Shown: piece after piece, positions 1-51,461 of the stretch
Position numbering within the stretch: the stretch's first letter is position 1
How the letters are laid out: each line of letters begins with the position of its first letter
Virus record (IMG/VR): IMGVR_UViG_3300045988_044010
DNA length: 64,000 nucleotides
Reading direction: 5' to 3' (one strand)
DNA from: a virus
Translations under genes and position numbers: made by a program
Notes under the pieces: generated by a model
What the model was told of the DNA's origin: nothing
What the model saw: the letters and a program-made list of their open reading frames with translations, nothing else
Database searches by the model: none

Positions 1-198
1 GTAGAAAACCCAAACAAAGAAATTAACTTTGTGATTGAAGAAGCTATTGCTAAGAATATCATTAGAAAGAATAGAGCTCAATATTACTTTGGTACAGACC
101 TTATTGGTAATGGTTTGGAAGACGTAATTGCTTATTTAAAGGATAAGAAGAATAATGATATCAAGATGGCTATTTTAAATGAAATCAAGTCCAAGTAA
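1..198 (+). CDS. hypothetical protein, C-terminal end (5' part lies outside the window)
   Basis: Frame 1 is open from base 1 to TAA 196-198. The stop overlaps the next start as TAATG. Confidence 0.5.
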   Translation, partial: VENPNKEINFVIEEAIAKNIIRKNRAQYYFGTDLIGNGLEDVIAYLKDKKNNDIKMAILNEIKSK

Positions 199-896
199 TG
201 AATAACCGTACTGCACATATTTAGTTTAAAGTTATCCTAGATAAGAATGCTCAGGGAGTTGCCTATGGTGGCTCACCTGCATTCTTACCTGAGGAAATAG
301 ATATCTTTCTTAATTAGGCTCAAAATGAGATAATTAGTAATAAGATAAGTGGGAACAATGTATTAAGACAGGGTTTCGAAGGATCTCTCCAAAGTATATC
401 TGAACTGGATGCTTTAGTACGTACTGATGAGAACATCTTTGCTAACAATTCTATGTATAATGAATTCGTAATAGATGATATACATGATGGTGGTAGAAGA
501 GTAACTATATTATCTGCAGTAATTATGTTTAAAGGTTCATCTACTAATTGCTTAATAGTAGACCATGAGAATGCGAACCTATTTAAACAAACATACAACA
601 ATATACCTTGGGTTGAAGTACCTGTAGCTACATTAGAGGATAATAGAATGAAAATCTATGTAGATCCTGTAATGCAGATATCAGATAGTTTTAAACCATC
701 AAGCAATAAGTATGCAGTTAATATTACTTATATAAAGAGACCTAAACAGTTTGATTACACACAGTTAGACGAAGAATTAGATCTACCTGAAGATGTAATG
801 AATGAAGTTATCAATAGAGCTGTAGTAATAGCATTGGAAAATATTGAATCACCAAGAACATCTACTAAATTACAGTTAAACCAATTATCTGAATAA
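198..896 (+). CDS. hypothetical head-associated protein, 232 aa with TAG read-through
   Basis: ATG 198 is in frame with track ORF 453..896. The only interruptions are TAG 222-224 and 315-317. It ends at TAA and sits directly upstream of the capsid candidate. Confidence 0.6.
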
Positions 897-897
897 T

Positions 898-1563
898 ATG
901 ACTGAAAGACAATTCCAAATAGCATTTGAAAGATAGTTGAATAATATTATACCGGGTTATAATATTATGAGTAAGTTAAACTCAGACACTATATTCTACT
1001 ATATAAATAGAGCTAAAGACGAATATGTTAAACAGTTATACAGAGCGTTTTAGCTTAATCAAGAATTGTCTGATAAGTTACGTACTCTAGTAAAGACAGA
1101 TAAATATACTAGTTTTGATTTTAAAAAAGTAAATAATAGGTGGTCTACTAATTATCCTGATAATTACTTATATACTTTAGGCGAATAGGTAAGCATCAAT
1201 ATATATAATGATAGATGTCCGCAATTGGCTTCTAAATCTACAGATGTTATTGAAGCTACTATTGAAACAGTTGATAGAATATTAAGTAACAGCTTATCAG
1301 AATATCATTTACACCACAATCAAGCTAGACCAGTTAGATTATATACAGACGGTAATATCGTGTTGATAACTGATGGAAACTATGGTATAGATGAATATCA
1401 GTTAACTTACTTAAGAAGTGCTAAAGACCTAGGTAATAATCTAACGGAAGAGTACACTGAAATGCCAGTTGATACTCACCAAGAAATTATAGATGCAGCA
1501 GTAATGATGTATATACAGCAAGCTGCTTCTATGCAATAGTCAGGTAAATCTGACAAAGACTAA
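898..1563 (+). CDS. hypothetical head-associated protein, 221 aa with TAG read-through
   Basis: ATG 898 is in frame with track ORF 1225..1539. Internal stops are TAG only. The apparent stop TAG 1537-1539 is followed 8 codons later by TAA 1561-1563. Confidence 0.6.
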
Positions 1564-3336: not shown

Positions 3337-3340
3337 GAAT

Positions 3341-9778: not shown

Positions 9779-10180
9779 ATGAAATACTTTACTATAAAAG
9801 AATTAACAGAATCTACTACAGCTACAGCTAAGAAATTAGATAATACTCCTACAGAGTAGGCAGAGAAGAATCTAATTACTCTAGTAGAAAAGGTACTTGA
9901 TCCACTTAGAGAATTGTATGGTAAACCTATTATAGTTAATTCAGGTTATCGCAGTCCAGAAGTAAATAAAGCAGTTAAAGGAGCTAAGACAAGTCAACAT
10001 GTATTAGGAGAGGCTGCTGATATAACAGCAGGTAGCAAAGAAGAGAATAAGAAGTTATTTGAGTTAATCAGAGATAACTTTGAGTTTGATCAACTTATTA
10101 ATGAGAATGACTACTCATGGATACATGTATCATATAGAGAAGGAAGACTTAGAAAACAAATATTAAAGCTTGGTAAATAA
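9779..10180 (+). CDS. peptidase M15 family cell-wall hydrolase (endolysin), 133 aa with 1 TAG
   Basis: ATG 9779 is in frame with track ORF 9914..10180. The motifs SGYRSPEVN, SQHVLGEAADI and WIHVSY match the zinc-binding H/D/H pattern of VanY-type and phage M15 peptidases. Confidence 0.8.
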
Positions 10181-13100: not shown

Positions 13101-15024
13101 TGCGCCGTTTAATTATGGAGCCGCTATATCATTACCTGCAGGTTCGAGAAGATTTGATATATGGTATTCTGATAACTCGTCAACTAATTCTACTTAGAGA
13201 GGAATATTCTATAGAACTGGTTGGAATGTAACTAAAAATCCATGGGTTAGATTTTTAGATGCCAATGATATGAGTGCTACTAATACAGCAGACAAAATTC
13301 CAGTTAGAGACGCTAACAAACAGATACTAACTAGTGGTTATAAGAAAGAAGGATCTAGTGATTCATACGTACTACTTGGTGGTGGAGGTCATGTACTGTT
13401 GGCAAAAGGAACAACTGGTAATACTATGGTACAGAGAGATGCTGATGGTATTGTATATGGTAAGTATTTTTACACAGAACAAGAAGATGAAGCAGCTGGT
13501 ACATCTATATCTTCAGTGTATATAAAGAGTACAGATAAAATTATTAGAAGAGTATCCTTTGCTAACTTTAAATCAGCATTAAACATTCCTTCTGCATACA
13601 CATTACCAACCGCATCTAGTACTACTTTAGGAGGTATCAAGGTAGGAGCAGGATTGTCTATTAGTAATGGAGTATTATCTGCTAATGGAGGTGGCACAGC
13701 TGATTCAGTTGCATGGGCTAACGTAACAGGAAAGCCAACGTGGATTGGAACTACTAAACCAACTTACAGGCTAGACGAGATAGCTTCATCTACTAATCAA
13801 ACTGTAGATGCTAGTACTACCCCTGTATCTAGAAAGAAGATAGTTTATGTAGGCAAATCAGGTAATGGATGTATTAGTGCTGTAGCTTTAGGTATACGTA
13901 ATGTAAATGGATCATTTGGTCCAGCTGTATTATCGTTAGGAACTAAAGATACGCCATCAGATACAGCAGCTATTGATGACGGATGGGTAGATTACCAATT
14001 CCAAACTAGTGGTAGAGTTGTATCTAAAGCAGGTACATTTGCTGTCACTTCTGATATTCCTACTTCATTAAAGAATCCTAACGCCATTAAGTTTACAGGA
14101 GCAGTTACGGGTACTTATGATGGTTCTTCTGCTGTTACTTTGAATATACCAACTATTGCTGGACCAAAAGGCGATACTGGTGAGAAGGGAGAAAAAGGTG
14201 ATTAGGGTCCGTAGGGTTTGAAAGGTGACACTGGGGATCAAGGACCTAGAGGATATGCTGGTTCAGATGGAGCTAATGGTAAATCGTTAGAGTTTGTATG
14301 GAGTGGTTATACTCTTGGTGTAAGACAAGAAGGTACTACATCATATACTTATTCAACTAGTTTACGTGGAGCAACTGGAGCGAAGGGTGATAAAGGAGAT
14401 AAGGGTGATACAGGTCCAGCTGGTACTACAACGTGGTCTGGTATTACTGGAAAACCATCATGGATTGGTAGTAGCAAACCAACGTATACATGGTCGGAAA
14501 TCACAAGTAAGCCATCATGGATCGGTTCAAGTAAACCTTCCTATTCATATTCAGAAATATCTGGTACTCCATCTCTTGCTGATGTAGCCACATCTGGATC
14601 ATATAATGATCTAAGTAATAAACCAGTTATTGATACTGCTCTATCTTCTACTAGTACAAATGCAGTTCAGAACAAAGTAATATATGAATAGTTAGTAAAG
14701 AAGGCTGAGATAGTAGGATATTAGGCAGGTTAGAATGGTTACATAAAGTTTGACAATGGTTTATTAATGCAATGGGGGTATAAAACAGCAAGTTCTACTG
14801 GTACTAATACTACTTATACACCTATAGCTTTTTATAATGCTACATATGTTCCCGTTATTACTTATTATGAACCGGGCAACGGTATGAATATTGTCACAGG
14901 TCTTATTATAAATAAACAGACTAGTTATTTCACGATAAGGAGTAGATATACAGTGGGAGATTCAAACGGTACTGGCGCGGGAACCAATGATTTTTATTGG
15001 GTAGCCGTTGGTAGATGGAAATAA
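10183..15024 (+). CDS. tail fibre protein 2 (coiled-coil and collagen-like), 1613 aa with TAG read-through
   Basis: ATG 10183 and track ORFs 10240, 10687, 11428, 12172, 13270, 14218 and 14767 are all in one frame. About 13 TAG are the only interruptions, and it ends at TAA 15022-15024. It has RAxxAE coiled-coil repeats, Gly-X-Y tracts, repeated KP(S/T)WIG(S/T)(S/T)KP(S/T)Y motifs, and a C-terminal tip ending FYWVAVGRWK. Confidence 0.8.
14161..14283 (+). repeat. collagen-like Gly-X-Y tract in fibre 2 containing two TAG codons
   Basis: GPK GDT GEK GEK GD[TAG] GP[TAG] GLK GDT GDQ GPR GYA GSD GAN GK. The TAG codons are at 14203-14205 and 14212-14214. Confidence 0.9.
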
Positions 15025-17399: not shown

Positions 17400-17440
17400 A
17401 AATATAGAATTTTATTGAAAAATAATAGGTTGTTCTCTTG

Positions 17441-19405: not shown

Positions 19406-20017
19406 ATGTTATTAAAAAGCTTTTTCAACAAATTGGCAGTCACTATCATAATTGGTTTGACTGCCTTTTGTTTTTTTTAGAGATAGAAAATAAAGACACT
19501 AGATAAAAGTCTAGGTCAAGTAACAAACAATTACAAGTATTATCAGGAATTAAATAGCAAACTAAAAGAAGATAATAGAACCTTACAACTTACTATAGGT
19601 GAATTGAATAATAGTAAAGATAGTTTAATTACTGAAGTAAAGAAGGTTTAGAAGGAACTTAAAATCAAAGATAAGAATCTCTAGTAGGTACAAGTAATCA
19701 ATACAGAAATGAAAGACTCAGCATCCGTTGAAATAAAAACTAAGAATGTTGACTTTAGTGAAAAACTAAAGCTAAATGAATTAACTACTATCACAGTAAA
19801 TAGAAAAGACTCAATCTTAACTGCCATACTAGATCTAAGAAATTCCCAGATACTATTTGTAGAAGAAAAAAAAGAATATCGTAATTAGTATAAAAATGGC
19901 TTCTAGAGGTTCTTGCACTTTGATTGGAAGAAAGATCGTGTCAGAAAGTATCAAATACATAATAGCAACAAACTTATAAAGGTAACTGATACTAGAATCG
20001 TAGAAGTTACTAAATAA
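19406..20017 (+). CDS. membrane-anchored coiled-coil protein (spanin-like by architecture only), 203 aa with TAG read-through
   Basis: ATG 19406 runs to TAA 20015-20017 with about 7 in-frame TAG. An N-terminal hydrophobic segment (LAVTIIIGLTAFCFF) is followed by heptad-like K/E/L-rich sequence. Confidence 0.45.
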
Positions 20018-22742: not shown

Positions 22743-23399
22743 ATGAAATTAAACACATTGAATACTATTATTGATGATATTCTACTTGAATTGCGCAACA
22801 GTTCTATTGCCGAATCAGAACATATAAGTAGAATACAAATCGAGCAATGGATTCATAACTACAGAGCTATGTTAATTAAATAGGATATTGATAAAGGAAG
22901 AGATATCAATCCTATGTATGTGTAGACTCTGCCTTGTATTCATCTAGATCGTGTTGAGTGCACTCCCGGTCATATTGAATACGTAAGTAATATTGAATTA
23001 CCAAAGCTTATAGACTTTCACTTTAGAACTGGATTAGTATCTGTAAAAGATATGTTCGGCAATTTAATCTAGTTAGGAAGTGAAACTAAAAACAAATATC
23101 AAAAGTATAGAAAATATACATGCAAAGACTACATAGCATATCTGAAAGGTAACAGAATATATGTAGATGGAGGTAATCATCAGTTAGAATATATCGAGGC
23201 AGATGTTATATTAGAGAATCCAGCTGATGCAAATGAATGCTTTGATCCAGATATGCCTTATCCAGCACCAGCTCACATGATACCAACTATTAAAGATTTA
23301 ATCTTTAGTAAAGAGTTAAATATAATGCCAAAAATGCCTACTGATGAGACTAATAACTCTAGAGATGATATGTAGAACATTTATAAACAGCAGAAATGA
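22743..23399 (+). CDS. hypothetical structural-module protein, 218 aa with TAG read-through
   Basis: ATG 22743 runs to TGA 23397-23399. Interruptions are TAG only. The stop overlaps the next ATG as ATGA. Confidence 0.6.
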
Positions 23400-23845
23400 C
23401 ACACAGAAAATCTTACACAATAAGTGACTTCTATTAGTTCTACCTATCTAATATTGAAAGAGATACTGTATATGATATTGATTATAAAGTGTACAGACAA
23501 ATAATAGAAGACTATTTTAAATTTATAGCAGACTAGGTTATTGAACATAGTAGAGAATTTAAACTACCATGCAGATTGGGTAATCTAAGTATAGTGAAAC
23601 GTAGACCTAAGAACTTTGATAATAAGAGTCTAAGGATTGATTATCATGAAAGTGCTATACAAGGTAAAGCAGTATACTTTATCAACGAACATTCCAATTT
23701 TTTTAAATTCAGATTTTTGTGGTCAAAAAAAGACAGTCTTCTAAAAAATAAAACCAGATATTAGTTTGTTGCCACCAGAGCAAACAAGAGAAGATTAGCA
23801 CAAATAATAAAAAATAGAGAGCATGATTACGTGGAGATTCGCTGA
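23396..23845 (+). CDS. hypothetical protein, 149 aa with TAG read-through
   Basis: ATG 23396 is in frame with track ORF 23576..23764 and ends at TGA 23843-23845. Confidence 0.55.
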
Positions 23846-36800: not shown

Positions 36801-39800
36801 GCAGAAGAATTAGCCAAAGCGTTAACTCAAAAATCTAATCAATTAATAGATAAAGCTAAGGAATCAGTAGAAATGTGGGAAGCATATAGTGATTTTATAA
36901 GCTCTGGAGAATACTATATTCATCAGCAATTAGAGAGAATTAAGGATAAACAACATAAATTAACTGAACAACAGAATGATGTAACTCCTACTAAAGTTCA
37001 AGAAGCTCCGAGTACTATTCCAGTACAAGATAAAACAAAGACAGAGCCAGCCCAAGTTGAAGATATGCCCACATTAGGTTCTATACTGAGAGGTTTGATT
37101 AGTGAAGAAGATGCTAAAGTGATAGACTAGGCAGTAGAACCAGAAGTACCAACAGAACAAGTGACAGTACCTATAGAAGAACCAATAACTGATAGTGATA
37201 ACGATAAGGTGGCTCCTTTAACATATGATCAACAATTAGATCCATATTCTCATGAATTAAACTACCGTTTAAGTAGAATTACACAAGACAAAGATGGTAA
37301 TTGGACTGTAGTAACTTATAATAAATTCCAAGGTATGGAAGAATACCTTAATAATAAGGAATTTTCAGAAATAAGCGCAGCACCAGATTTTGTATCTGAA
37401 GTTACTAAAAACGGAGTACACTTTGAAGTACGACCATATACTGATGAAAATGGAGTTACGTCTGATGCTATATATGCAATATTTAAATATAAAGATAAAG
37501 AATATGTAGCTTCTGTTAGAACAGAGAAAGGTTTAGCAGCTAAAAGAGGTGGTAGATTTAACAGATTACCTTATGAGCAACAATAGTATATTAAGGAGAA
37601 TTTGCAAAATCTCAGAAACAAAATACTTGAATTGAACAAACAAGTAAAACTTGATGCAGATTTATAGATAGTTCCAACATTTATAAGAACTACTTCAGGT
37701 AGTATTGTGAATGAAGTAAATGCTGATGGAACCCCTAAGAATAGAAATATAATTGACTCTGCTTGGTAGAAAGTAAAGGATCCGTATTAGATTAATCCAA
37801 GTAATACTGAGATGGGTATTAGCACTGGACCTAAAGGTAAATCTATTATCCGTCTTAAAGATAGAGTATTATCATATAATGGTAAGTCTATGGGTAAACC
37901 ATTCTGGATTATAAAAGCTCCTAATTCAGAAGGTGCAATGATAGATAAACCAATTCAGCTTAATTACAAGTACTTTAAAGACCAACCTAAAGTAGCTGAT
38001 CTAATATTAGATTTAGTAACCAGTAATGATCAATTTTACACAGATGCTAATGGAGTACAAACTTCTATTAATCCAAAATAGCTGTTGCACTTTATAGTTA
38101 ACTTTGGTTCACATACTGCTACTAATCCTGAAGACACTAGATTAAATAATGAACAAATTCAATAGAGACTTAAAAAACAATTCTATATTGATGATAATAA
38201 TAATGTAGTAATTGGTACTACTACATACAGTATAAGTGATCTATTAACTGACAAGAATATAAGAGAGCAAGCCAAACAGTACATAATGGACAATTTCCAT
38301 TATGCTATTGATGAAGATGGTCTTAATAAAAATTGGTTAGGTGGAGATTTACAGAATGAAAACAGGGATCCTCACTTTGAATCATTGCACTCTTTTTTCA
38401 AGAACAGCAATGTAGATAAATTGGTTATTGTTCCCGGAGAAATAGAATTTACTCCTAAAGATTTTGGTATAGAATATTAGGATGGTAAGAGAGTTGTATC
38501 AAAAACTAATCCAAATGGTATAAGCGTATTAGGCTGGTATATCAAACAAGGTATACTTATGACTGATATTGCTGATACTTTACAAGATGCTAACATATAT
38601 GTAGATGATGTTACTATCCAAAGTAAGTCATAGAGGTCTGAACAGCAACAGGCTCAGCAACATATCAGTGAGGCTGTAGAAAGGGACTTTAGAAAAGAAA
38701 GTATCAGTTATACTGATGAGCAAGGTAATCAATAGAAACTTGATCTTGGTGAAATCTATAAGATATTAGATGGAAAGAAACGTGGTCCTAATATGACTGT
38801 AGAAGATTCTGTTAAAGACGGAATATGGTATAATGCTACAGAAAAGATGGATGTAGATCAAGCTAAACAGTGGATAGAAAAAACTCTTGGCATTACTCCA
38901 GAAATAACCAATTATGTTATAGATGTTACGGAAGCAGGTCAAAGTGTAGTAGGTAGAGTAACTGTAGATTCTATTAAATTGTATAATGATGCTCCAAAAG
39001 GAGTAGAATTTCATGAGGCTTGGCATAGAGTATCTCAGCTATGCATAGATGAAAAACATAGAAGAAAGATATATGATAGATATAAGAAGAAGAGCAAGTC
39101 AAATCTCTCTGATGCGGCTATAGATGAAATCTTAGCAGAACAGTTCAGAGAATTTATGTTAAATGATGCTGCTAAATATGATTTTGATACAAAGAATTGG
39201 TTTAGACGTATATTGAACTTTATTAAACTATGGGCTAGAACTGGTCAATATGCTTTAGCTAAAATATATGCAGACATTAATAGAGGTAAATATTACGGTA
39301 TAAAACCTAATGAGGCTAATGTAGAAAGATTTAAATCAATATACAGTGACGAAGGTCCAAACTTTGAAGTAAATGGTCACCAATTTAAAGCCATTACTAA
39401 GACTAAATAGTTTGATGATATAGTAAAAAGTCTCACTTATGCTTTCTTCCAATGTTCTTTTGTAGAAGGTAAATCTATTGATTATACTGATATTAATCCA
39501 AAAGATTATAGTTTTGAAAGACTTAAATTAATAGTAGAAGCTTAGAAAAACAAGTTTCCTTCTGAAGCTCTTACTGAAATATATGACAACTTTGATAATA
39601 TATTTGCTCCAGCTATAGCCTCTAAACTTAAATCATTAAATATAAGAACTATAGATAATGATAATGTTACAGCTAAAGAAGAGGGTGAAGAAGGAATAGA
39701 TATAGGACAGCATACAGTAGAAGGGATGAATATATCTATTAAAGACAACGCCCCTGCTGAAGTTAAATTCTTCTTCTAGACTATACCAATGAGACAAAGG

Positions 39801-42800
39801 AATGCCGATGGTTCATATTCAGCTAAGATAGATGCAGTTACCAAATTTCCTAGTTTTGTAGATTCTAATACTGCTTGGAATAATGTACTAAAAGATTTAG
39901 CAGGGTGTAGAACTATTGCCAATATTATGGATAGAATAGTTCTACTGTCTCAAAATGATCAATTCTATGCATCGTTGTTGATAAAGTTCGCAGATTTAGT
40001 TCAAAGATCTACTAATTCAGATCCTAATGTTGCTATAAACGCGGAAGCTATGTTAACTAAGTTAGAAACTGTGATTACTTCTGATATAAACAACTATGTT
40101 ACTGCAAAAATATCATAGGATGAAGCCGGAATGACTACTATGAAATTAACAGACAATACTGTTGATATGAAAGCTATGCAATATCCTAAAGTGTGGTCTA
40201 GGAATATGTTTGAAAATTCTGGCATATTTAAATATAATGAGGATGGTATAGTAGTTGCACAGGATAACGCTAAGAGCAAAATAAACACAGTTCTTAATGC
40301 CCTAAGTACGATCAAACAAGCATTTGTAAATAATAAGGGTATTATACGTACTAAGGATGGTAATTTTGATTTACATGAAATTCAGAATCAAGAGAGGCTT
40401 AAAGATTACATAGTTTCTATATTATAGGAAGTAGGAATTGGGATGGATAAACCTACTATAAATAAGATGTTGTTATCTGGTGATTATGGTAATCCTAAGT
40501 CTGATCCATATACATTGCTAAACACATTTGTAGTAAATACTGTCAACTTTGGTGGATTAAGTAAAATATCTGATACATTAAAGATAATTCAAGATGCTAT
40601 AAAACCTGATAATACTTTGTCTACTATAACAATAAGTGGTAAAGATACATTACCTACACAAATATGGAATGAAGTTGGCTATGTTAAAGCATTGGCTAAT
40701 TATTATGCTTTTGTACATGCTACAGACAAAGGATTAGGTAGTTTAGGTCCAGATGGTAATAGTTATTATATGGTTTCTCAGAACAATTTTGCTAAAGACC
40801 GAGTAAACGAATTAATAACTGATCCAGAATTGTTCCACAATCTAGAAGCTGTAGTATATAATGAACATTCTATTATACTGAGTGCAGTAAGAAATGGTAA
40901 TAAAAATATCCAAGTAGAGACTTTCATTAATTTTAAAGATGAAACTAGTTATGATGCTGGTAGAGATTACTTTAATATAACTCAAAGAGAAGACTACCTT
41001 GCAAAAATGACTGCTATCTTTAATGACAGAATAATATTCCCTACAGTAGCAGATAAGAAGACATATCATTTCATTAGAGGAATTAAATTGCCTCACGAAA
41101 GAATTAGATTTACTAAAACAGGTAATGGTGTTAACATATTATACGGTGAACAATCGTTAGATACAATTATAGGTTATTGTCAAGATGAATTAAATCAGAT
41201 TGAATTGTGTTTAAGACAAATTGACGATGATCCTACTCATTATGATAAAGATAAGAATATCCACTATAATGCTGATGGAACTATAAACAACGACTGGTTG
41301 GATCCTTCTCGCAGAATTAAGAACTTTCATACTCCTAATGAATATAAGTATACAGATGATAAAGGTACAGAGCATACTGTAATGTTAGAAGGTAACGGAT
41401 CTAGATTCTTATTCTTAACCGGAGTATATGTTAATGGGAAGTTCATAGATTTTAACGATCCATCTAAATCTGCTATAGAAAATTTATAGACTGCTAAAGA
41501 TTATTTCTTTAATGCTCCTATTGATACTCAGAAACAATTGATAAGTGGACTGATCAATAGAAGAATGAAGGATGAATTAAAGACAGCTAGAGATTTAGGG
41601 CTTATAGAAATTAATGAAAATCTAGATATCTGGAGTATTAGAAACAAACTATTAGATGATAATGTGCTTGCAGAAAGACAACAAGCGTATGAATCATTGG
41701 ATGCTAATAATGCAGAAGGCTATGCAATATTTGATATGCTTGCAGATTATACTATTAATAGTATTATATCTGTAAGTGAAATAGAGAAAATATTCAATGG
41801 AGCACCTGCTTACTATAAAGTAAAATATGACAGAACCGGTATATTAGACTTATCTGTAGATAAGATTAAACGTCTTGGTTCATTAACTTCTACTGGTACT
41901 AATAATAGGTTAGACTTCTTCAGTAATGATCCTATGAGAGAAGAATACGTAGTAGCTGAACTCAAAGATCATGAAATCCAAAGTAAACAATATTATACAT
42001 ATCGTAATCTATTTACTTTAGGTAATATAAAAGAAACCATTCAAGAAATGAATGGTGAAGAGGCTTGGAATGAAGTTAAGGATCTATCTATACAAGAAAT
42101 AGAGAAACAATATCCAGAAGAAGTAAAAATAGCCAAACAAGCTGCTGAAGTAGAAGTTAGAGGTTATAAAGAGGGAATAAACGTAGCTGACGCTGCTGTT
42201 TACATAAGTCCTATAATGACCAGAGATCTTCTTAGAATGCGTGGACAGTGGAGCCCTGAAATAAAAGAAGCTTTCGATATACTTATGAATGAAGATACTG
42301 CTGAACAGTGGGATTCTAATCCTGAGTTATATGCGAGAGCTAATAAGGTAATACTTAATGCTATGAAGTATATGGCATTTGGTACGAGATTTAATGAAAT
42401 TCCCGGTTTAGGAATACCTTATTTTAATAAAATGGCTTTGTTCCCATTATTTAAATCTGTAGCTACTGGAGATATAAGAGCTTTGTATGATAGGATGATG
42501 GATGAAGATCCTAACAGGAGAATTGATATGGTTATGTTTGATTCTGCTGTTAAGGCTGGATCTAGAGCACCAATGAAAGCATACAGAGCTGCTAAAGACA
42601 GTGAAATAGAGTTAAAAGATGGACAGACTGTATTATCGGCTCATTTAACAGATCAATTACAAAGTGGAGAAGGTAATACTCTGAATGACTTTAATAACCT
42701 AGTTACATATACTTAGAAGTTTAAATACTTACGTCAACAGTTGGCTACAGATCCTCATATTCACGAGGAAACTATGGCTGGTACACAGTTTATGAAAGTT

Positions 42801-45800
42801 AATCTATCTAACATACGTATGAATGATATGTATGGTAAAGAAGGAGAACAAGTATCTGGACAAACTATTAAGGACACAGTAATGAATGCTCTAAATAGAT
42901 TGTCTGATATAGGTAAAGCTAAACTACAAGGTCAACTATTTACTGAAGACGGTTAGGTAAATATAACAGCATTAGGAGAAATGCTTACTGCTGATGCAAG
43001 AGAATCTGATGCCAATGATAATATTATCTCTGGTTTAAATACTAAAAATAATGCGTTTACTATACCATTGTCGGCATTATCTGACAATAAATGGTTGGAA
43101 AGCAGATTCATTTCTATGATCAACAAAGAAGTGATTGACGTACACATGCCAGGAGGTGCGTTTATTCAGCGTTCAGCATTTGGACTAGAAGCTACTAGTA
43201 AGAATGTTATTACTCCTAGTATGATAAATGATGGTAGAGCTTTAAAGGCTATAAATGAAGAAGGTTCTATGGATGCAGTAGTAAGTATAAATCTATTTAA
43301 GCACTTTATACCTGACTACAAAAAAATGACATTCAGACAAGCTAGACAATGGCTTATTGATCACGATATAATAGGACAAAAAGCTACTGCTAATTCTATA
43401 GGTTATCGTATTCCTACACAGTCAATTGCTTCTATATCTCCACTTAGATTTGTAGACGTATTCCCTGAAATAATGGGAGACACAATCATGCTTCCAGAAG
43501 ACTTTACGAAGTTAACTGGTTCTGACTTTGATATTGATAAACTATATGTAGCCAGATTCTCATATAACAAAGATGGTGTAAAGATAAACCACGATATAGC
43601 TAATAGTACAGAACAGGTTGCAAATGCCATTAAGAACGAAATGCTTGATGCATACATGAAAGTATTACTTACTAAAGATAATACCAATTCTCTCAAACTT
43701 TCTATTGATAATGCTACTGAGAATACAAAGGAAGTACTTAAAGATATAGAAAGTAATAGAGAAGTGCATCATGTACAACCATTTGAAGTATATACTCCTT
43801 CATATCAAGAAGCTAGAAAAGCAGAATATACTGGAGGTAAAGCAGGTATTGGACCATTTGCATTGAATAATGCTCATCATATTCTTACTTAGTTAGTAGG
43901 TTTAAAGATGGAAAGTAATGCATTTACAGAAGCTATGAAGATTGTAGATCTTGGTAGAATATACGATTATCCTACAGTAGGTACTAAAAAGGGTGGTAGA
44001 ATATTAGATTGGTTATCTGCTATGATTAATGGTTTTGTTGATATAGCTAAGGACCCATATATTGTACGTCTTAATGTAAACGCTTGGACATATAACATGG
44101 TATCCTTTTTACTACGTACAGGTAAAGGTAAATGGGCATTCTATTTTGTAGGTCAACCTATATTGAAAGAAATGGCAGAAGAAGTTCTTAAAACTAAAGG
44201 AAAATATGGTGTAGATAGAACTAAGTCACCATCGCAACTTGAGAAAGAAGCAATAGAATCTGTACTTGACAAATACGATCCAACTGGTTCTTATAGGAAG
44301 GAATTCCAATATATTAATTCTAAACCAGAATTGAAAGCTAATGCTTATAAGAACTTGTTTGAAACATTTTTTGATGAAGATGGAAAAGAAACTAGCTATT
44401 GTAGAGAGTTATTGTTGAATAATGGAGCATACAATTATTTGAATAAGAGACAAGTAGGTATATATTACGCTTGGCTTGCTCTTAAACCATATGCTGATGA
44501 TCTAGCTAATCTAGTAAAGTACTCCAAGATAGATACTAAAAAAACTGGTAAAACGTTTGCAGAACAACAAATATATTATAATGGTATGCAAGATCTAGCA
44601 GAAGAGAGTCACTTTGCTCCGGGAGAGGTAAGACGTTTTTATGATGAAACTTTTATAGCTAGAAAAACAGAAAATAGTATTCCATTTGGATCTTCTATAT
44701 TTAGGAATTTACTATTTAGAAATACTGATACCTTTATTAGCTAGTATAATACTGTATTATCACTTCTTGGTAGAAAAAATAACGCAAACTCTAAACTATT
44801 AAATCCAATTATATCTGGAATGGAGGCTCAACTGAAAGCTGAATTCTTCAATCAATATGTAGAAGATAATAACATTGATGTAAAAGGTTTGTTCTACGGT
44901 AGAAATAGTATAGCTAAGAGGCTTAATAAGTTCAAAAATATGATATTTAAGGGAGAATATAAATATTTATTGAACGCTGATGGAACTATAAATAATGATT
45001 TCTTAAATTATTTATTACCTAATATAACACATGATGGTTTAGATTTTATTGATACTTCTGAATTATTAAGTTCTGACCAATCTCAGGCTAATAATCTTAT
45101 TAATTACTGGAGAGAATTACTGGATGATCCAAATCCAGAGATTAAGAGATTGGCTAGAGATTTAGCAATATATGCTTTTTACGTATCAGGGGACAATCCT
45201 TCAATGAATTCGTTCTTCCAATATCTTCCAAATAGTTTTAGAAAAGAAATAGGTTACACAGATTATATCCAAGGAAAGTTAGATCAACTAGTAAACGGTT
45301 CCCAACTGGGGTATAAAAATAAAACTGATTTATTCTTAAACAATTGGACTAACGATAGTTTGGTTAAGCCAGTTAGCATGTATAGTGGTAAGAACAATGA
45401 ATAGCTTAGAGGAGTATACATAAACGATAAAGCCGCTATGCCAAACATAATAATGGGCTAGAGAGTAGGATCAGATAAACCAGCCATTAGACCTATTAAT
45501 TGGATTAAAGTAGCTAATCAAGATGGTGTAGAAGAATCTTTCCCGTTATTTCCGCCTTATATTAAATTAAGAGATGGTTTGGGATTTGGTCCATAGAATT
45601 GGCACGTTTATACCATAATTGGTTATAAGTCATTTGTAGAGATACAGCCTAATGGTAAACCCGGTAAAACTGTTTATATACCTTTATATGGTTTAATATC
45701 TAAAAAAGGTTATAAATATAAAGGTCACTCTATAGTAGAGTATGGAAGAGAAACTGCATTTGATTTTAATAAAGAAAATGAATGGGATTATGTAGAAGCA

Positions 45801-47300
45801 TTGAATAATAAAGATGCTTTAGCAGATATGGCTCTTCAACAAGAAAGACAAGATTGGATAGACGATGCTCCTTATATTCATCATATAACAGAACTACCTA
45901 GTTATTAGAACATGAATTATGCGTTAGCTAGACAAGATAGAGTATATACTGAAACGGAAGATGATATGAATGTGGACGATGAGTTCTTTCCTGTATTAGA
46001 AGAAAGAGAAGAACCTACAATTTTGGCTGATTATAGTAATATAAAAAATTACTTGAAAACATATAGTGGTATAATAACTAATCTAGAACCTAATCAAATA
46101 TTTGTATTTGGTTCAAATACACAAGGTAGACATGGTAAAGGAGCTGCTTTAACAGCAAAAAATAAATTTGGAGCAGTGTATGGACAATCAGAAGGTATAC
46201 AAGGATAGTCTTATGCTATAATAACTAAAGATTTGACAAGTAGTGTACAACCATCTAGAACTCCAGAATAGATAGTTGAATAGATAAACAAATTATACAC
46301 TTATGCTAGGCAGCATAGAGACAAAGAATTTTTAGTAGCATATTCTGGCACAGGTACTAATCTAAACTACTATTCTAATGAAGACTTAGCACGTATGTTT
46401 GCTAAATACCCTATACCAGATAATATAGTGTTTGAAAAATCTTTTAGTGAACTTGTGTTTAAATACATAAATAAAGAAATAGATAAAATGTTTAATAACA
46501 CGAATGCTGCAAAATTTATTAATCACTCTGGAGGAGCTCTTGGATCAGATACTATGTGGGGTAAAATAGGTGAAGAATATGGAGTATATTCTAAACACTA
46601 TTACGCAGAAGGTCAAAAGACGCCTAATGGAAATACCGCATTGGGTAAACAATTATTATCTGAATCAGATGTTCATCTGAAGGAAGCTAATAAAAAATTA
46701 GGTAGATTATTTCCTACTAGTAAAGACTATGTGAATAATTTACTTAGACGTAATTGGTTTCAAGTAAAGAATGCTGACGCAGTATTTGCTATAGGAACTA
46801 TAGCTGATAATGGTACTGTAAATGGTGGTACTGGTTGGGCTGTTCAAATGGCAATAGATAATAATAAAGATGTATATGTATTTGATCAAAGTAGGTTAAA
46901 ATGGTATAGGAATAGAGATCATAAATGGTCAGAGGTAACCACACCAAAACTCACTCCTAATTTTGCAGGTATAGGTACTAGAGAAATAACGCAAGAAGGA
47001 ATTCAAGCCATTAGAAATGTTTATGCTCTTACTTTTAGAGGGTAGATTGAAAACTATATTAGTCTAGAAAATAAATCAGATCTATTCCCATCTAGTTTAC
47101 CACTAACTGGAGTTGAATTAATGGCATTATATGAACAAGGAAATTCAAGAATAAGTGAAGTACTTGATCAAATGGAAGATCTTACACCAGAAGAAAGATA
47201 GACTTACTTAAATGAATTTGCACAGTTTATGACAGACAATGAAGTTAATACGCAAGATAAACTTGAAGAAGCATTGAGAAAATTCATATGTAACTTATAA
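33804..47300 (+). CDS. giant virion protein, 4498 aa with about 49 TAG. It contains a zincin-like protease motif and a crAss-type RNA polymerase DFDID motif.
   Basis: ATG 33804 and all track ORFs from 34776 to 46395 start at coordinates divisible by 3. In my codon-by-codon reading the only in-frame stops before TAA TAA (47298-47303) are TAG. Motifs are HEAWH at 39012-39026 and GSDFDIDKLY at 43518-43547. Confidence 0.75.
39012..39026 (+). other. HExxH zinc-metalloprotease motif (HEAWH)
   Basis: CAT GAG GCT TGG CAT is in frame with the giant ORF, in the context GVEFHEAWHRVSQL. Confidence 0.55.
43524..43538 (+). other. DxDxD metal-binding motif (DFDID) of a two-barrel RNA polymerase
   Basis: GAC TTT GAT ATT GAT is in frame, in the context LTGSDFDIDKLYVARF. 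Compare NADFDGD in the cellular beta-prime subunit. Confidence 0.65.
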
Positions 47301-47312
47301 TAACCAGATAAT

Positions 47313-50300
47313 ATGTATAAATGTCCTAACAAAAATCTTCCTGAATGGAAGGAACTAGAAAAAGTTGTACCAGAAGTCGCATATACTATCTGGGATATGA
47401 ATAATGGTCATGGTATAGATAAGGCTCCGAATGGGGAGCCTTCTATATTGTTTGACAATTTAATATAGAAACTAGGTAATAGAGAAGAAGCGATTAAAGC
47501 TAAAGCTAAGATATTCTCTAGAGATTTTATACAGAGTAAAGAAGAATACGCTAAAGATTCTAACGGAGAACCTATAGTTGACGCTGTATTAACATTGCCA
47601 CAAGTAACATATAATGAAGTAAATTTTGATTTACTGAATGAGGATCAAATTAGAGTGATATCAGAAGTATCTAACACTTATAACAAGATACAAAAAGGTC
47701 TAAAAGATAGACTTAATGCTATTAAAAGATACTCAAATAAAAGCCCTAAAGTATGGAGATAGTTACAAACTTTAATACAACAATTATCTAATTCTGAGAC
47801 TGAACAAGGTATGTTACAATTCATGGAGCATATAGATGAATCAGTTAAAGACAGTATCCAGTTCTTGAATAGACCAATTGAAGATATAAATTCTAAATAG
47901 ATTAGGTAGCTGTCCAATGATTATGTTGGATTCTACAAACCACTTATAGACGATATTGCATATTTAGTAGATACTACAGATTTATTCAAAGATAAAGAGA
48001 ACTATCAACAGATAAAAGATAATCTAAGTCAATTACAACAATAGCTTAATCAAGTAAATAATAAATTTATTAATGTTCTCAAAAGTAAAGGTTATTAGTA
48101 TTTGAAGAATTTCTTAAAATAGCAAGGAATGCCTAATGATATCATACAAGAAACTATAAATTGGTTAGATGATCCCAAACATGATTCTAACATGTTTATG
48201 AATTGGTTCGGTATGGCTACTAATAGTAATAATGCTGTTCAACAAACTATAGCTAAAACGTTAAATGACGTAAAAAATGCTACAGATAGAGAAACTCTAG
48301 ATGTTGGTATAAAATTGACTAAAACATTAAAAGTTGCCAAAGATAAGTATGGTAACGATGTCTAGAAATTACTGTATGAAAAACTTGATGATGGTACATA
48401 TTCTGGATTAAGAGTTAAACCTCTTAATTATGGTCAAATGAGTAAAAACAGAAAGGAATTTCTGTAGAAATTAGCAGAAAAATTATCTATAGAAAAAGAT
48501 AGTGATGGACAATATATACTACCATAGGATGAAGATATTTAGAATAAATGGTATACTGCTATAAATAACTGGTATAATGAAAATGCAGACAGAAAATATA
48601 AATCTGAATATTATACGGCTCGTAATAAAATATTATCGTTAAAAACCAGAGATGCTGTGAATGAGGTATAGAGATACATTGATAACTTAACATCTCCTAT
48701 TACTATTGATGGTGTAGAATATACTAACTTACTTAGTGAATCTGAATAGATGCAGTTAGAATAGTTGCGTAAACAAAAATCTCTATTATCAAATCCATAT
48801 AATCTAGATGGAAGTGAGAAGACTGGAGATGATGCTATAATAGCTAAAGAATTATCTGAATTTAACAAGCTAGTATCTGAACATATAAAATATAAAACAG
48901 ATAAAGCTAAATATGATGCAGACAGAGCCAAAGTAGCTAGTAAGTATGGGGAAGGATCCGAAGAGTTAAAGCTATGGGAAAATAGAAACACTGTAGAGAA
49001 ATATACTTAGGAATTCTATGACAGAATAGATAATCTAAATAAAGTAGAACAAAGTGATATATACTAGGATTTAGTTCAAAAAAGAAGACAGCTTCAACAA
49101 CTGTTTAAAGATCCACGTACAGGCAAAATAGATGTTACTTAGTTATCTGATACTGAAAAAGCTGCACTATTATAGTTAGATCAAGATATCGCAGATGTAA
49201 CTGAATTTAAAACAAAGGAAGAAACAGAAAGTAATTCAGATAAGTTCAGTGATTTTGCAGAAATGGCTTTTACTGATTAGTATTTTATAGATATGGACAA
49301 TGCTAAGAAAGCGGGAACATAGGCTTATAATGATTGGTTTATGGCTAACCATTATGAAGACAAAAGAGGATATATGTAGGCTGCATCTTATTACAAAGAG
49401 CTAAAACCGCTTCCTCAATATATACAATAGTATACAGAAAGAGCTCCTATAAACAAATATTCTACATTAGATCCTAGTTCTGATTGGTATAATAACAATT
49501 GGGATCCAAACGGTCCGGCGATACAACCAAAAAAAGATAAGTATAACAATAAGAAGGCTTATGACGCTATGGCTAATAAACCAGAGGTATTAGACCTATA
49601 TAATTAGATTGAAGAAATAATGTCATTAGCCAATAGTTATGTATCTTTCATGTAGTTCGCTAATGACAGTAGAATGCCTCAAATACCTGCTAGATTTATG
49701 CAAGCACTTAATCGTAAAGATGGTCTTTTATCAAAATTAGGATATGCTTTTGAAGATTTAGCTACAACTAAAGCAGATGACTTAGACTTCGTGGAAGAAT
49801 TCGCTACTATGCCTAATGGAGACCCTATAAAAGTAATACCTACTAGATTTATAAAAATGTTAGATGACCCAAATACTATATCTACAGACGCAGTAGCGGC
49901 TACAGTATAGTATTATAATATGGCAGCTAATTATAAAAATATGTCAAAGCATTAGGACGATATAGAGCTTATGCTAAATCTTTTAAAGTAGGTATCAATT
50001 AAAACAAGGAAGGACGTTAAAGGTCCCGGTTCTACTAATGTTTACAAGCAATCACAACTGTTAGTTGATAGACTGATGTATGGTAGAAATAAGAGTCCTA
50101 TATTAGTAGAAGCGTTTGGTAAAGAATATAATGTAGGTAAGATGCTAGATATTGCTAGAGGATTTGTTACTAAAGTTAACCTATCTGGTAACTTATGGTC
50201 TATTGGAACTAGCTTCTTTACAGATGCTACATATACTACTTTAGAGGCAAAAATGGGTAAATACTTTGACTTAGAAGATCTAAACTTTGCTAAGAGTGAA

Positions 50301-51461
50301 TTCTTTAGGTAGCTTCCAGATATGATGGCAAACATTGGTAATCCTATACCAAACGGCAAAGTACCATATTTATTGATGTTAAATCAAGTAGTAAAAGACA
50401 ACAGAGAATTATTTGATAGATTAGACCAAAGTCAAGTATTACGTTCTATTAATCAGAACTTTTGGTTTGCAGGATATACACAAGCAGATTATACTGTTAA
50501 AAGCCACACGCTTCTAAGTATCTATCATAATTATCGTTTCGTAGATGGTGAAGGTTTTTTATCTAAACAATAGTATATTGATAAATTTTATTCAGATGAT
50601 AGAAAAAAAGGAGCAGTGGCATTTAAACAGCTTTCTACTACGTTATATGATGCTTATATCACTAATAATAAAGGCGAGGTTTCTGTAGATTCTAAATACA
50701 GTAAGTATGTTACTGAAAAGCTTTTAAATGATGTTAGAAATAGAATTGATATATTATCTAAAAGAATTGACGGTACTTTGAGAGAAGTAGATAAAGCAGC
50801 AGTTCATGCAAGTTCTATTGCATCTTACTTAGTATTACATCGTAACTTTATGGTATCTGCTTTATAGGATAGATTTAAGAAGAGACAATATAATCTAGAT
50901 CTTGGTGCTATGGAAGAAGGTTATTATAGATCTGCTGGCAAGTTCTTATCAAATGTGTTAAAGAATAAACATTTTGCTCTTACTTAGTTATTAGCAGATT
51001 ATAATAATATGAAAGACTATGAACAATATGGAGTAAGAAGAGTACTTAATGAGTTAATGTTGGTAGCTGGTTCTACGTCAGTAGCTATTGCATTTGCTTC
51101 ATTAGTAGATGGAGATGATGATTATGATATGTGGTTAACACAATCAATTACGTACTTGGCTATGCGTTCAGCATTTGAATTTAGAACTATGTATAACCCA
51201 CTCGAATTAATTTCTTTAATCAAATCTCCTACAGCAGCTTTCAATTGGTTTGATAATTTATCAAGCTTCATTAATCTGATAAATCCATTTGCATATACTG
51301 GAGATAGAACACCTTTTACTATAATAGATAGAGGAGTGTATAAAGGAATGCCTGTTATATTAAAGAATATAATTAAAGTAACCCCATTTAAGAGTGCATT
51401 TGAAGCTTAGGATCCAAAAACAAAACGAAATTATCTATAGAATCAATTAATGAACTTCTGA
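47313..51461 (+). CDS. large virion protein, 1382 aa with TAG read-through
   Basis: ATG 47313 lies 10 nt after the TAA TAA. Track ORFs 48129, 48765, 49674, 50076, 50322, 50616 and 51009 are all in the same frame. Interruptions are TAG only, up to TGA 51459-51461. Confidence 0.65.

What the first reader, a model, noticed from the sequence alone, without database searches (positions are those of the whole stretch)
198..51461. TAG is a sense codon (most likely Gln) throughout the rightward late module
Under the standard code the + strand is a litter of short ORFs. Consecutive fragments nevertheless keep one frame and are separated only by TAG.

The clearest case is the ATG at 33804. It and all 25 track ORFs from 34776 to 51009 start at coordinates divisible by 3. 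Reading codon by codon I meet only TAG until TAA TAA at 47298-47303. ATG 47313 follows, and again only TAG occurs until TGA 51459-51461.

Real gene ends are TAA or TGA. Many sit in ATGA or TAATG stop/start overlaps (198, 23396, 24575, 25483, 29649).

Two observations point to Gln. TAG 23997-23999 aligns with the conserved Gln of the GIY-YIG motif (I-TevI has KLQRSFNKHG; here it reads YL[TAG]RAYNKYG). TAG 14203 and 14212 fill Y positions of an unbroken Gly-X-Y run that also contains GDQ.
Basis: partly seen in the sequence, partly recalled or inferred. Interest (0 to 1): 0.85.

Follow-up and report, generated by a model that had tools for sequence, protein, structure and literature searches.

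The report
Amber-recoded late genes, crAss-like phage

Summary
With TAG read as sense, the + strand from 198 to 51461 becomes 29 contiguous genes covering 98% of the region. They hold 192 in-frame TAGs, no in-frame TAA or TGA, and end only in TAA (23) or TGA (6).

Pfam and PDB alignments run straight across TAG positions. In standard-code relatives these positions align with Gln in 19% of cases, against a 3.4% background. Gln beats every other amino acid by at least 66 log-likelihood units.

The window belongs to Crassvirales, family Suoliviridae, and is Buchavirus-like. RefSeq relatives such as cr52_1 and cr109_1 already have CDSs read through TAG. They also carry a tRNA(CUA), annotated tRNA-Gln, just upstream of the terminase gene.

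The window holds no tRNA. A related contig whose end matches window 1-861 at 98% carries tRNA(CUA) about 12 kb upstream of the window start.

The leftward replication module is nearly TAG-free. Its one internal TAG is a conserved codon right after the start of a DUF1064 nuclease gene.

The nuclease "TAG gate" and the variability of the suppressor tRNA are the only mildly new details.

The parts
198..51461 (+). Late (virion, lysis, cargo) gene module. It forms 29 genes when TAG is read as Gln, with 192 in-frame TAG codons. Every gene ends in TAA or TGA.
33804..47300 (+). Giant 4,498-aa ORF with 49 in-frame TAG, ending in TAA TAA. It is the ortholog of the single giant CDS of cr52_1, cr56_1, cr50_1, cr10_1 and cr118_1. 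The last three are standard-code genomes with almost no in-frame TAG in their late-module ORFs overall (0.4-0.6 per 1,000 codons); the giant CDS was not counted on its own.
47313..51461 (+). 1,382-aa ORF with 33 in-frame TAG (41% of its Gln codons), ending in TGA. It is the last gene of the late module.
24575..25486 (+). Tail ring protein 1 (Pfam CrAss_Ring_1, E 1.8e-117, profile 3-271/272), with 4 TAG. The TAG at aa 74 aligns with Gln of phiCrAss001 gp43.
22743..23399 (+). Tail ring protein 2 (Pfam CrAss_Ring_2, E 2.4e-80, profile 1-210/210). The match spans TAGs at aa 47, 61 and 110.
23823..24578 (+). GIY-YIG/NUMOD homing endonuclease with 6 TAG. TAG 23997-23999 aligns with Gln of I-TevI (PDB 1MK0/1LN0).
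9779..10180 (+). Peptidase M15 endolysin-type gene. The full-length Pfam match spans the TAG at aa 27.
14113..14304 (+). Collagen-like Gly-X-Y run inside the 1,613-aa gene 10183-15024. TAG 14203 and 14212 occupy Y positions.
19406..20017 (+). Membrane-anchored coiled-coil protein, the ortholog of the 'lysis regulatory/spanin-like' genes of cr52_1 and cr109_1. It is among the late genes richest in TAG: 7 TAG in 203 codons. The likely start is ATG 19406, directly after the TAA at 19402-19404.
   Evidence: the start is inferred
51509..51534 (.). Palindromic terminator-like hairpin of 11 pairs, lying between the convergent late (+) and replication (-) modules.
51540..64000 (-). Replication module compatible with the standard code. 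It includes a PDDEXK exonuclease, metallophosphatase, AAA ATPases, primase, DnaB-like helicase and DNA polymerase. It has 15 ORFs and 3,885 codons, with only one internal TAG.
54802..55194 (-). DUF1064 (PD-(D/E)XK nuclease) gene, annotated as a Holliday junction resolvase in cr109_1. It begins ATG ATG TAG, with the TAG at 55186-55188. No alternative start follows for at least 29 codons. It is the only TAG-dependent gene in the leftward module.
59084..59089 (-). Tandem TAG-TAA at the end of the DnaB-like helicase gene (59084-60064). The same arrangement occurs in 9 of 14 homologs. The protein end is the same within one residue under either code.
63339..63347 (-). TAG-GTx-TAA at the end of the ORF 63339-63998. 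Six of 13 homologs have a TAG immediately followed by a stop.

Best explanation
The window is about two thirds of the genome of a virulent crAss-like phage (Crassvirales, Suoliviridae, Loutivirinae, Buchavirus-like). It uses two coding regimes.

The leftward replication genes contain essentially no TAG, so the host's standard translation system can read them. The rightward virion, lysis and cargo genes contain TAG at about 1.1% of codons. They give full-length proteins only when TAG is decoded as glutamine.

Decoding is most likely done by a phage-encoded amber-suppressor tRNA with anticodon CUA. In related genomes this tRNA sits at the head of the late operon, just upstream of the terminase gene. 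That position lies about 12 kb upstream of the window start.

Genes with in-frame TAG cannot give full-length product until the suppressor is active. TAG therefore acts as a translational timer for late functions.

- **Shown here:** the reading frames, read-through homology, Gln identity by alignment, the TAG-free early module, and the tRNA(CUA) in relatives.
- **Inferred:** that this genome carries the tRNA, that the tRNA is charged with Gln, the timing role, and how host RF1 is outcompeted.
For: **ORF structure and statistics**. There are 192 in-frame TAG and no in-frame TAA/TGA in 16,810 codons. Stops are only TAA or TGA. Coverage rises from 65% to 98%.

**Homology across TAG.**
- Pfam full-length matches span TAG positions.
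- PDB alignments to I-TevI and phiCrAss001 gp43 run across TAG positions.
- Giant single CDSs exist in standard-code Suoliviridae.

**Amino-acid identity.**
- Against standard-code relatives TAG faces Gln at 48 of 251 sites. Background Gln is 3.4%, and Gln is best by 66 nats.
- Against recoded relatives TAG faces TAG, CAA or CAG at 249 of 427 sites.
- Relatives' TAGs face window Gln at 9.1% of Gln sites, against 1-1.5% for other residues.
- In two relatives, KKQGKV (Gln) aligns where their closest DUF1064 relatives have KKqGKV (TAG).

**Lineage.** The window shares 72-86% DNA identity with the Buchavirus genomes cr52_1, cr56_1, cr109_1 and cr113_1. The RefSeq CDSs of cr52_1 already read through TAG.

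**Suppressor tRNA.**
- tRNA(CUA) lies upstream of terL in cr52_1 and cr109_1, annotated tRNA-Gln.
- It is found in 49 of 60 IMG/VR relatives with default ARAGORN, and in 6 more with relaxed settings; in 2 further loci it is present only as two halves split by an insert.
- Locus L038 carries it and overlaps window 1-861 at 98% identity.
- Its closest non-crAss matches include tRNA-Gln genes of actinophages.

**Early module.** It has 1 internal TAG in 3,885 codons, where about 44 would be expected at the late-gene rate.

**Literature.**
- Yutin 2021 reports TAG-to-Gln in late genes of delta-group crAss-like phages, with suppressor tRNAs (PMC7886860).
- Peters 2022 found peptides with Gln at TAG in two crAss-like phages (PMC9523058).
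- Borges 2021 proposed the timing model.
Against: - No tRNA of any kind lies in the 64-kb window, and Rfam finds nothing at gathering thresholds. The suppressor of this particular genome is therefore inferred from relatives.
- Default ARAGORN found no tRNA(CUA) near terL in 11 of the 60 related loci scanned. Relaxed settings recovered an intact candidate in 6 of these.
- The isotype of the tRNA is not proven. Similar tRNAs in other phages are annotated both tRNA-Gln and tRNA-Arg.
- Forty-nine TAGs in one 4,498-aa ORF require near-complete suppression. At 90% per codon only about 0.6% of chains would be full length (my arithmetic). No release-factor or anti-RF1 function was identified.
- No protein-level data exist for this genome.
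Confidence: 0.94

Rival explanations
1. TAG is a sense codon but encodes an amino acid other than Gln, for example pyrrolysine, Glu, Lys, Tyr, Trp or Leu. ARAGORN labels the relatives' tRNA(CUA) as 'tRNA-Pyl'.
For: ARAGORN names the CUA tRNAs 'tRNA-Pyl'. Only 19% of TAG sites face Gln in standard-code relatives, and Glu (27 of 251) is second. Some similar tRNAs in other phages are annotated tRNA-Arg.
Against: The ARAGORN label follows from the anticodon alone. The substitution profile at TAG sites fits that of the window's own Gln codons. Those codons face Gln at 23.6%, and TAG sites do so at 19%. Gln beats Glu, Thr, Lys, Arg and Ala by 66-97 log-likelihood units.

TAG interchanges specifically with CAA/CAG in relatives. 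Proteomics in other crAss-like phages found Gln (PMC9523058). RefSeq annotates the tRNA as tRNA-Gln.
Confidence: 0.03
2. The host itself uses a TAG-sense code, and the phage simply matches it. There would be no phage-driven code switch.
For: No tRNA(CUA) lies in the window. Published recoded phages without a detectable suppressor exist.
Against: The replication module has 1 internal TAG in 3,885 codons, against 1.14% in late genes. Two of its genes end TAG followed at once by TAA. That pattern is expected if TAG still terminates early in infection.

Relatives carry their own tRNA(CUA) at the head of the late operon. The literature reports hosts of such phages (Prevotella, Bacteroides) as using the standard code.
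Confidence: 0.02
3. The TAGs are genuine stops. The late module would then be fragmented genes or pseudogenes, assembly errors, or genes expressed by occasional programmed read-through without reassignment.
For: Under table 11 the region is a series of short ORFs.
Against: Only TAG interrupts the frames, with no TAA or TGA in 16,810 codons (P about 10^-656). Homology continues in frame across 192 sites. The same pattern occurs in dozens of independently assembled relatives. Classical programmed read-through involves single sites, not 1.1% of codons.
Confidence: 0.01

Closest known systems
TAG-to-Gln ('code 15') recoding of late genes in delta-group crAss-like phages (Suoliviridae). Examples are RefSeq Buchavirus genomes cr52_1 (NC_055888), cr109_1 (NC_055892) and cr56_1 (NC_055890); see Yutin et al. 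2021, PMC7886860.
   Same: - Same gene order.
- 72-86% DNA identity.
- Late genes full of in-frame TAG that the RefSeq CDSs read through.
- Replication genes free of TAG.
- tRNA(CUA) placed before the terminase gene.
   Different: This genome is not one of those records. Its tail proteins are strongly diverged, for example 47% aa identity for the 1,388-aa structural protein. Its own suppressor tRNA lies outside the window. Nothing differs in kind.
Metaproteomically validated code-15 crAss-like phages (Peters et al. 2022, PMC9523058) and the 'recoding as lysis/late-gene timer' model (Borges et al. 2021 preprint, 10.1101/2021.08.26.457843).
   Same: Structural and lysis genes form one alternatively coded block, and the replication genes are in standard code. 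The suppressor tRNA is phage-encoded. The spanin-like lysis gene is especially rich in TAG: 7 in 203 codons here, and 'spanin preferentially recoded' in Borges.
   Different: No proteomic or expression data exist for this genome. The N-terminal TAG in the DUF1064 nuclease of the replication module is not mentioned in that text.
E. coli supE-type amber suppressor, a tRNA-Gln with anticodon CUA (established textbook knowledge).
   Same: A tRNA with a CUA anticodon inserts Gln at UAG in competition with RF1. One suppressor type in relatives (cr109_1/L043 type) starts UGGGGUAU and ends ..CCCCA-A-CCA. From memory of the E. coli GlnRS identity set, this would give a U1-A72, G2-C71, G3-C70 acceptor stem like tRNA-Gln. 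I did not test that comparison.
   Different: supE suppression is partial and tolerated genome-wide. Here a 4,498-aa ORF with 49 TAGs demands near-complete decoding. The tRNAs are phage-encoded and of several unrelated sequence types.
TAG-recoded Lak megaphages and other alternatively coded gut phages (Borges et al.; Devoto et al.).
   Same: The phage reassigns TAG while infecting Bacteroidota that use the standard code. It carries suppressor tRNAs. A Lak tRNA is a weak match to the crAss suppressor, at 76% identity.
   Different: These are unrelated phage lineages. Some Lak phages also encode RF2. No release factor is annotated in the relatives examined here.

Membership tests
Stop-codon-recoded phage, TAG-to-Gln (genetic code 15 type) | Conserved genes are interrupted only by in-frame TAG, and the reading frames are restored when TAG is read as sense. 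| tested here: met
   192 TAG and no TAA/TGA in 16,810 codons. Coverage rises from 65% to 98%.
Stop-codon-recoded phage, TAG-to-Gln (genetic code 15 type) | Homology to known proteins continues across the TAG positions. | tested here: met
   Pfam full-length matches. PDB alignments. 251 aligned TAG sites in standard-code relatives.
Stop-codon-recoded phage, TAG-to-Gln (genetic code 15 type) | TAG positions correspond to Gln in homologs that use the standard code. | tested here: met
   Gln at 19% of sites against a 3.4% background. Gln is the best fit by 66 nats. The reciprocal test agrees.
Stop-codon-recoded phage, TAG-to-Gln (genetic code 15 type) | Recoded genes never terminate with the reassigned codon. 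| tested here: met
   29 of 29 late genes end in TAA or TGA.
Stop-codon-recoded phage, TAG-to-Gln (genetic code 15 type) | The phage encodes a suppressor tRNA with anticodon CUA. | tested here: inconclusive
   None lies in the window. It is present in RefSeq relatives and in 49 of 60 IMG/VR relatives with default ARAGORN, 6 more with relaxed settings. One of these is a contig that overlaps window 1-861 at 98%. The expected position is about 12 kb upstream of the window.
Stop-codon-recoded phage, TAG-to-Gln (genetic code 15 type) | Early and replication genes are compatible with the standard code. | tested here: met
   One internal TAG in 3,885 codons, in the DUF1064 gene.
Stop-codon-recoded phage, TAG-to-Gln (genetic code 15 type) | Peptides carry Gln at TAG-encoded positions. 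| not testable with these tools
   This needs proteomics. It has been shown for other crAss-like phages (PMC9523058).
Crassvirales / Suoliviridae (Buchavirus-like) | crAss-specific virion proteins, synteny and nucleotide similarity to classified members. | tested here: met
   CrAss_Ring_1 at E 1.8e-117 and CrAss_Ring_2 at E 2.4e-80. 72-86% DNA identity and the same gene order as Buchavirus genomes.
Pyrrolysine decoding of UAG | UAG is read as Pyl by tRNA-Pyl, with pylS and pylBCD present. | tested here: not met
   The alignment profile at TAG sites is that of Gln. No Pyl-related family appeared in the Pfam hits of the 30 window proteins scanned. The ARAGORN 'Pyl' label reflects the anticodon only. 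The full genome was not scanned for pyl genes.
Programmed stop-codon read-through (leaky termination, for example Qbeta A1 or retroviral gag-pol) | A single context-dependent read-through site at the end of a gene gives a minor extended product. | tested here: not met
   There are 192 sites spread through 25 genes, up to 49 in one ORF.

The most novel reading that the evidence does not exclude
Beyond bulk recoding of the late module, this lineage may use single TAG codons as gene-specific timers.

The DUF1064 PD-(D/E)XK nuclease (putative Holliday junction resolvase) sits in the otherwise TAG-free replication operon. It keeps a TAG 2-8 codons after its ATG in 55 of 64 related loci, in at least 10 different N-terminal sequence contexts. 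This nuclease would therefore be made only once the suppressor tRNA is active.

Neighbouring early genes that end in TAG carry an immediate TAA backup. A linked open point is that 49 TAGs in one 4,498-aa ORF imply near-total suppression, and hence some unidentified way of neutralising host RF1.
Probability: 0.45. Interest if true: 0.45.

Novelty: already known. Interest (0 to 1): 0.2.

Why it matters
For annotation, calling genes in this region with table 11 shatters the virion genes. A 4,498-aa protein becomes dozens of fragments, so the code must be set to TAG=Gln. For biology it is one more example of the known phage strategy of switching the genetic code during infection to time late-gene expression. 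It adds no new principle.

The small additions are these:
- a conserved start-proximal TAG in a nuclease gene of the early module
- tandem TAG-TAA gene ends
- several unrelated suppressor tRNA types at one locus
- an insert-split suppressor tRNA in some relatives

These could give handles for testing the timing model experimentally.

Tried and rejected
- **Finding the source contig.** Exact 38-40-mers from the window hit IMG/VR relatives at 92-98.8% identity but no identical contig. This genome's own tRNA could therefore not be read.
- **Searching with the cr52_1 anticodon arm.** It found only 3 contigs, because the suppressor tRNAs of close relatives have different sequences.
- **Loci upstream of the window start.** Those reach only 4-7 kb and contain no tRNA. 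The terminase-centred scan solved this.
- **Looking for a bacterial tRNA-Gln with the same anticodon arm.** The genome-contig scan used a 17-mer that was too short. All 120 hits lie outside tRNA genes, so it was uninformative.
- **Rfam on the window.** No family reached its gathering score.
- **Rfam on the roughly 1-kb insert that splits the suppressor tRNA in L102.** No group I intron model matched at E <= 0.01, only a neighbouring tRNA.
- **Enrichment of TAG near late-gene 3' ends (relic stops).** About 5 genes have a TAG in the last 12 codons, against about 4 expected from the rates. These are my hand counts from the translations. The idea was rejected.
- **Pfam on further late proteins.** It added little.
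- **Heavy searches not used.** The 5.8-billion-protein search, structure prediction and fold search were left unused because local comparisons already settled the question.

Full report

Yes. The window has 32.7% G+C. Treating TAG as sense raises the longest + strand ORF from 699 to 4,544 codons. Treating TGA or TAA as sense does nothing comparable.

With stops restricted to TAA and TGA, the + strand from 198 to 51461 tiles into 29 head-to-tail genes.
- ATG at 33804
- TAATAA at 47298-47303
- ATG at 47313
- TGA at 51459-51461
- TAATG overlaps at 198 and 29649
- ATGA overlaps at 23396, 24575 and 25483
- TAG at 23997, 14203 and 14212

In the frame of 33804..51461 there are 82 TAG but only 2 TAA and 1 TGA. 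The other two frames of that stretch hold 297 and 784 TAA+TGA.

Over the module there are 16,810 codons. They hold 192 in-frame TAG, no in-frame TAA or TGA, and stops of 23 TAA, 6 TGA and 0 TAG. Off-frame TAA+TGA occur at 8.6% per codon, so such frames have a chance probability near 10^-656. ORFs of at least 100 aa cover 65% of the region under the standard code and 98% with TAG as sense.

**2. What is the sequence?**

DNA and protein searches place it in Crassvirales, Suoliviridae, Loutivirinae. It lies next to the Buchavirus genomes cr52_1, cr56_1, cr109_1 and cr113_1. Identity is 72% in the tail/DGR region and 80-86% in the replication genes, with the same gene order.

Pfam recognises crAss tail ring protein 1 (E 1.8e-117), ring protein 2 (E 2.4e-80), an M15 peptidase, a GIY-YIG/NUMOD endonuclease and a reverse transcriptase.

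The - strand from 51540 to 64000 encodes replication functions:
- a PDDEXK exonuclease
- a metallophosphatase
- AAA ATPases
- a primase
- a DnaB-like helicase
- a DNA polymerase

A palindromic terminator-like hairpin at 51509-51534 separates the convergent modules. The window starts inside the late operon. By synteny with cr52_1 and cr109_1, the MCP, portal and terminase genes lie upstream of position 1.

**3. Do alignments cross TAG, and which residue fits?**

The Pfam matches cover the whole profile across TAG positions: CrAss_Ring_1 3-271/272, CrAss_Ring_2 1-210/210 and Peptidase_M15_3 1-108/108.

Against PDB, I-TevI aligns over residues 15-109 of the GIY-YIG protein. In phiCrAss001 ring protein 1 (gp43), a Gln faces the TAG at residue 74. 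The two other TAGs in that alignment face Asn and Arg.

For a statistical answer I aligned all 29 proteins to TAG-sense ORFs of relatives. Four comparators use the standard code: cr50_1, cr10_1, cr118_1 and Cellulophaga phage phi14:2. They have 0.4-0.6 in-frame TAG per 1,000 codons, against 6-18 in recoded relatives.

At 251 aligned TAG sites these four genomes have Gln 48 times (19%). The background is 3.4%, and the window's own CAA/CAG codons face Gln at 23.6%. The residue profile fits Gln best, with log-likelihood -684 against -750 for Glu and -770 or lower for the rest.

Against recoded relatives, TAG faces TAG 154 times, Gln 95 times, then Glu and Lys, out of 427 sites. Reciprocally, relatives' TAGs face window Gln at 9.1% of Gln sites, but only 1-1.5% of any other residue class. 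TAG makes up 25% of Gln codons in the late genes.

**4. The decoding device**

ARAGORN finds no tRNA in the window, and Rfam finds nothing. In cr52_1 and cr109_1 a tRNA with anticodon CUA lies immediately upstream of the terminase gene or of a homing endonuclease gene preceding it. RefSeq annotates it as tRNA-Gln, and ARAGORN labels it 'Pyl' from the anticodon alone.

In cr109_1, TAG-rich genes begin in the terminase gene, about 0.8 kb past this tRNA. The gene in between, a homing endonuclease, has no TAG. The genes before the tRNA and the - strand genes are nearly TAG-free.

A terminase-centred scan of IMG/VR returned 80 loci. Of the 60 scanned, 49 have a tRNA(CUA) up to 2.8 kb upstream of terL on the same strand. 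Relaxed ARAGORN settings recovered an intact candidate in 6 of the remaining 11.

Locus L038 carries tRNA(CUA) at 7212-7287. Its last 861 bases match window 1-861 at 98% identity. L043 and L045 behave the same way at 96%. So the window's genome very probably has its suppressor about 12 kb upstream of position 1. This is inferred, not seen.

The suppressors of closely related phages fall into several unrelated sequence types. The type tested is most similar, outside crAss-like phages, to annotated tRNA-Gln genes of actinophages. It also matches some tRNA-Arg genes.

**5. The leftward module and a refinement**

The 15 leftward ORFs (3,885 codons) contain three TAGs. Two are terminal. The helicase gene ends TAG-TAA, as do 9 of 14 homologs. 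The ORF 63339-63998 ends TAG-GTx-TAA, and 6 of 13 homologs have TAG followed directly by a stop. These genes therefore end at the same place, within one or two residues, whether TAG stops or not.

The third TAG is internal. The DUF1064 gene belongs to a PD-(D/E)XK nuclease family (PMC1189080) and is annotated as a Holliday junction resolvase in cr109_1. It begins ATG ATG TAG at 55194-55186. No other start codon follows for at least 29 codons, and the Pfam domain begins 16 residues after the TAG.

In 64 related loci, 55 have a TAG 2-8 codons after the ATG. It is embedded in a Lys/Arg-rich tail that continues on both sides of the TAG. At least ten different sequence contexts occur: MMq, MTq, MKRq, MRRKRq, MKRKKKq, MKKq and others. 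Two relatives have KKQGKV where their closest relatives have KKqGKV.

Ordinary late-gene TAGs are retained as TAG in only 17.5-36% of aligned sites. I infer that this TAG is kept by selection, to withhold the nuclease until the suppressor is active. That is in the spirit of the published timing model, but it is not mentioned in that text. Phylogenetic non-independence has not been corrected for.

**6. Mechanism**

Early in infection the host reads the TAG-free replication genes. Expression of the phage tRNA(CUA) then allows decoding of TAG as Gln in terminase, portal, capsid, tail, lysis and cargo genes.

- *Shown here:* frames, homology, Gln identity by alignment, module asymmetry, and the tRNA in relatives.
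- *Inferred:* timing, charging with Gln, and presence of the tRNA in this genome.
- *Open:* a 4,498-aa ORF with 49 TAG needs about 99% or better suppression per codon. At 90% only about 0.6% of chains would be completed (my arithmetic). Yet no release factor or RF1 antagonist is annotated in the relatives.

The spanin-like lysis gene 19406-20017 is among the late genes richest in TAG (7 in 203 codons). This matches the reported preferential recoding of the spanin. Four late genes have no TAG: 1663-2643, 9278-9595, 15596-16126 and 20057-20653. For three of them, the cr52_1 CDSs at the matching map positions and of matching length are also TAG-free; I did not confirm that correspondence by alignment.

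**7. Comparison with what is known**

Yutin et al. 2021 described TAG-to-Gln recoding, mostly in late genes, in delta-group (now Suoliviridae) crAss-like phages, together with suppressor tRNAs. [quoted passage not shown] Peters et al. 2022 detected peptides with Gln at TAG in two crAss-like phages. A 2026 preprint describes another amber-reassigned Crassvirales genome.

The RefSeq records of the nearest relatives already translate through TAG. The finding is therefore a correct rediscovery, not a novelty.

**8. Verdict**

The novelty rating is already known, and interest is low. Minor points that might merit follow-up are the start-proximal TAG gate in the DUF1064 nuclease, the tandem TAG-TAA ends, the turnover of suppressor tRNA types, and the insert-split suppressor tRNA in some relatives.

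Noticed in passing
window 54802-55194 (- strand), with the TAG at 55186-55188; relatives L240-L303: The DUF1064 PD-(D/E)XK nuclease gene lies in the otherwise TAG-free replication module and begins ATG ATG TAG. A TAG 2-8 codons after the start is present in 55 of 64 related loci, in at least 10 different K/R-rich contexts. It looks like a conserved translational gate.
   Followed up: yes
window 59084-59089 and 63339-63347 (- strand): Two replication-module genes end with TAG backed up at once by TAA (TAG-TAA and TAG-GTx-TAA). The arrangement recurs in 9 of 14 and 6 of 13 homologs. The protein end is therefore nearly the same under either code.
   Followed up: partly
window 16131-18685 (+ strand): A complete diversity-generating retroelement is present. 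The variable repeat lies at 17285-17377, at the 3' end of the tail protein gene 16131-17399. The template repeat is at 17443-17535, at 77% identity, and the mismatches I inspected are adenines in the template. The reverse transcriptase is at 17651-18685, Pfam RVT_1. DGRs are known in crAss-like phages.
   Followed up: partly
L088 6469-7545 and L102 8481-9555 (IMG/VR relatives, upstream of terL): The suppressor tRNA(CUA) is split within the anticodon, between positions 35 and 36, by an insert of about 1 kb. The insert carries a 301-aa HNH-type ORF (L102 8559-9464). The two halves are 97-100% identical to the intact tRNA of L049. No Rfam group I intron model matched.
   Followed up: partly
L019, L038, L039, L043, L042, L048, L074, L077, L105 (tRNA coordinates are): Closely related phages carry several unrelated tRNA(CUA) sequence types at the same position before the terminase gene. 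This suggests repeated replacement of the suppressor.
   Followed up: partly
L102 8369-8472; also L040, L041, L053, L055, L061, L072: A second, 104-nt tRNA-like gene lies directly upstream of the suppressor. It matches Rfam RF00005 at 36 bits. Relaxed ARAGORN calls it tRNA-Val(GAC) with a 16-nt insert. Its role is unknown.
   Followed up: no
L019 31171-31551 (cr52_1 81171-81551, - strand): A permuted tmRNA-like gene with tag peptide GNTSYVTDYTRLVA is called by ARAGORN and annotated in RefSeq in the relative cr52_1. None is found in the window.
   Followed up: no
window 1663-2643, 9278-9595, 15596-16126, 20057-20653 (+ strand): Four late genes contain no TAG at all. For three of them, the cr52_1 CDSs at the matching map positions and of matching length (gp04, gp17, gp22) are also TAG-free; the correspondence was not checked by alignment. 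This suggests gene-specific avoidance, possibly in highly expressed virion proteins.
   Followed up: partly
window 25483-29649 (+ strand): The 1,388-aa virion structural ('stabilization') protein is only 47% identical to its best RefSeq ortholog. The replication genes of the same relatives are 80-86% identical at the DNA level. The genome therefore looks mosaic, or its tail module evolves fast.
   Followed up: no
window 51509-51534: A perfect 11-bp-stem palindromic hairpin lies between the convergent late and replication modules. It is probably a bidirectional terminator.
   Followed up: no
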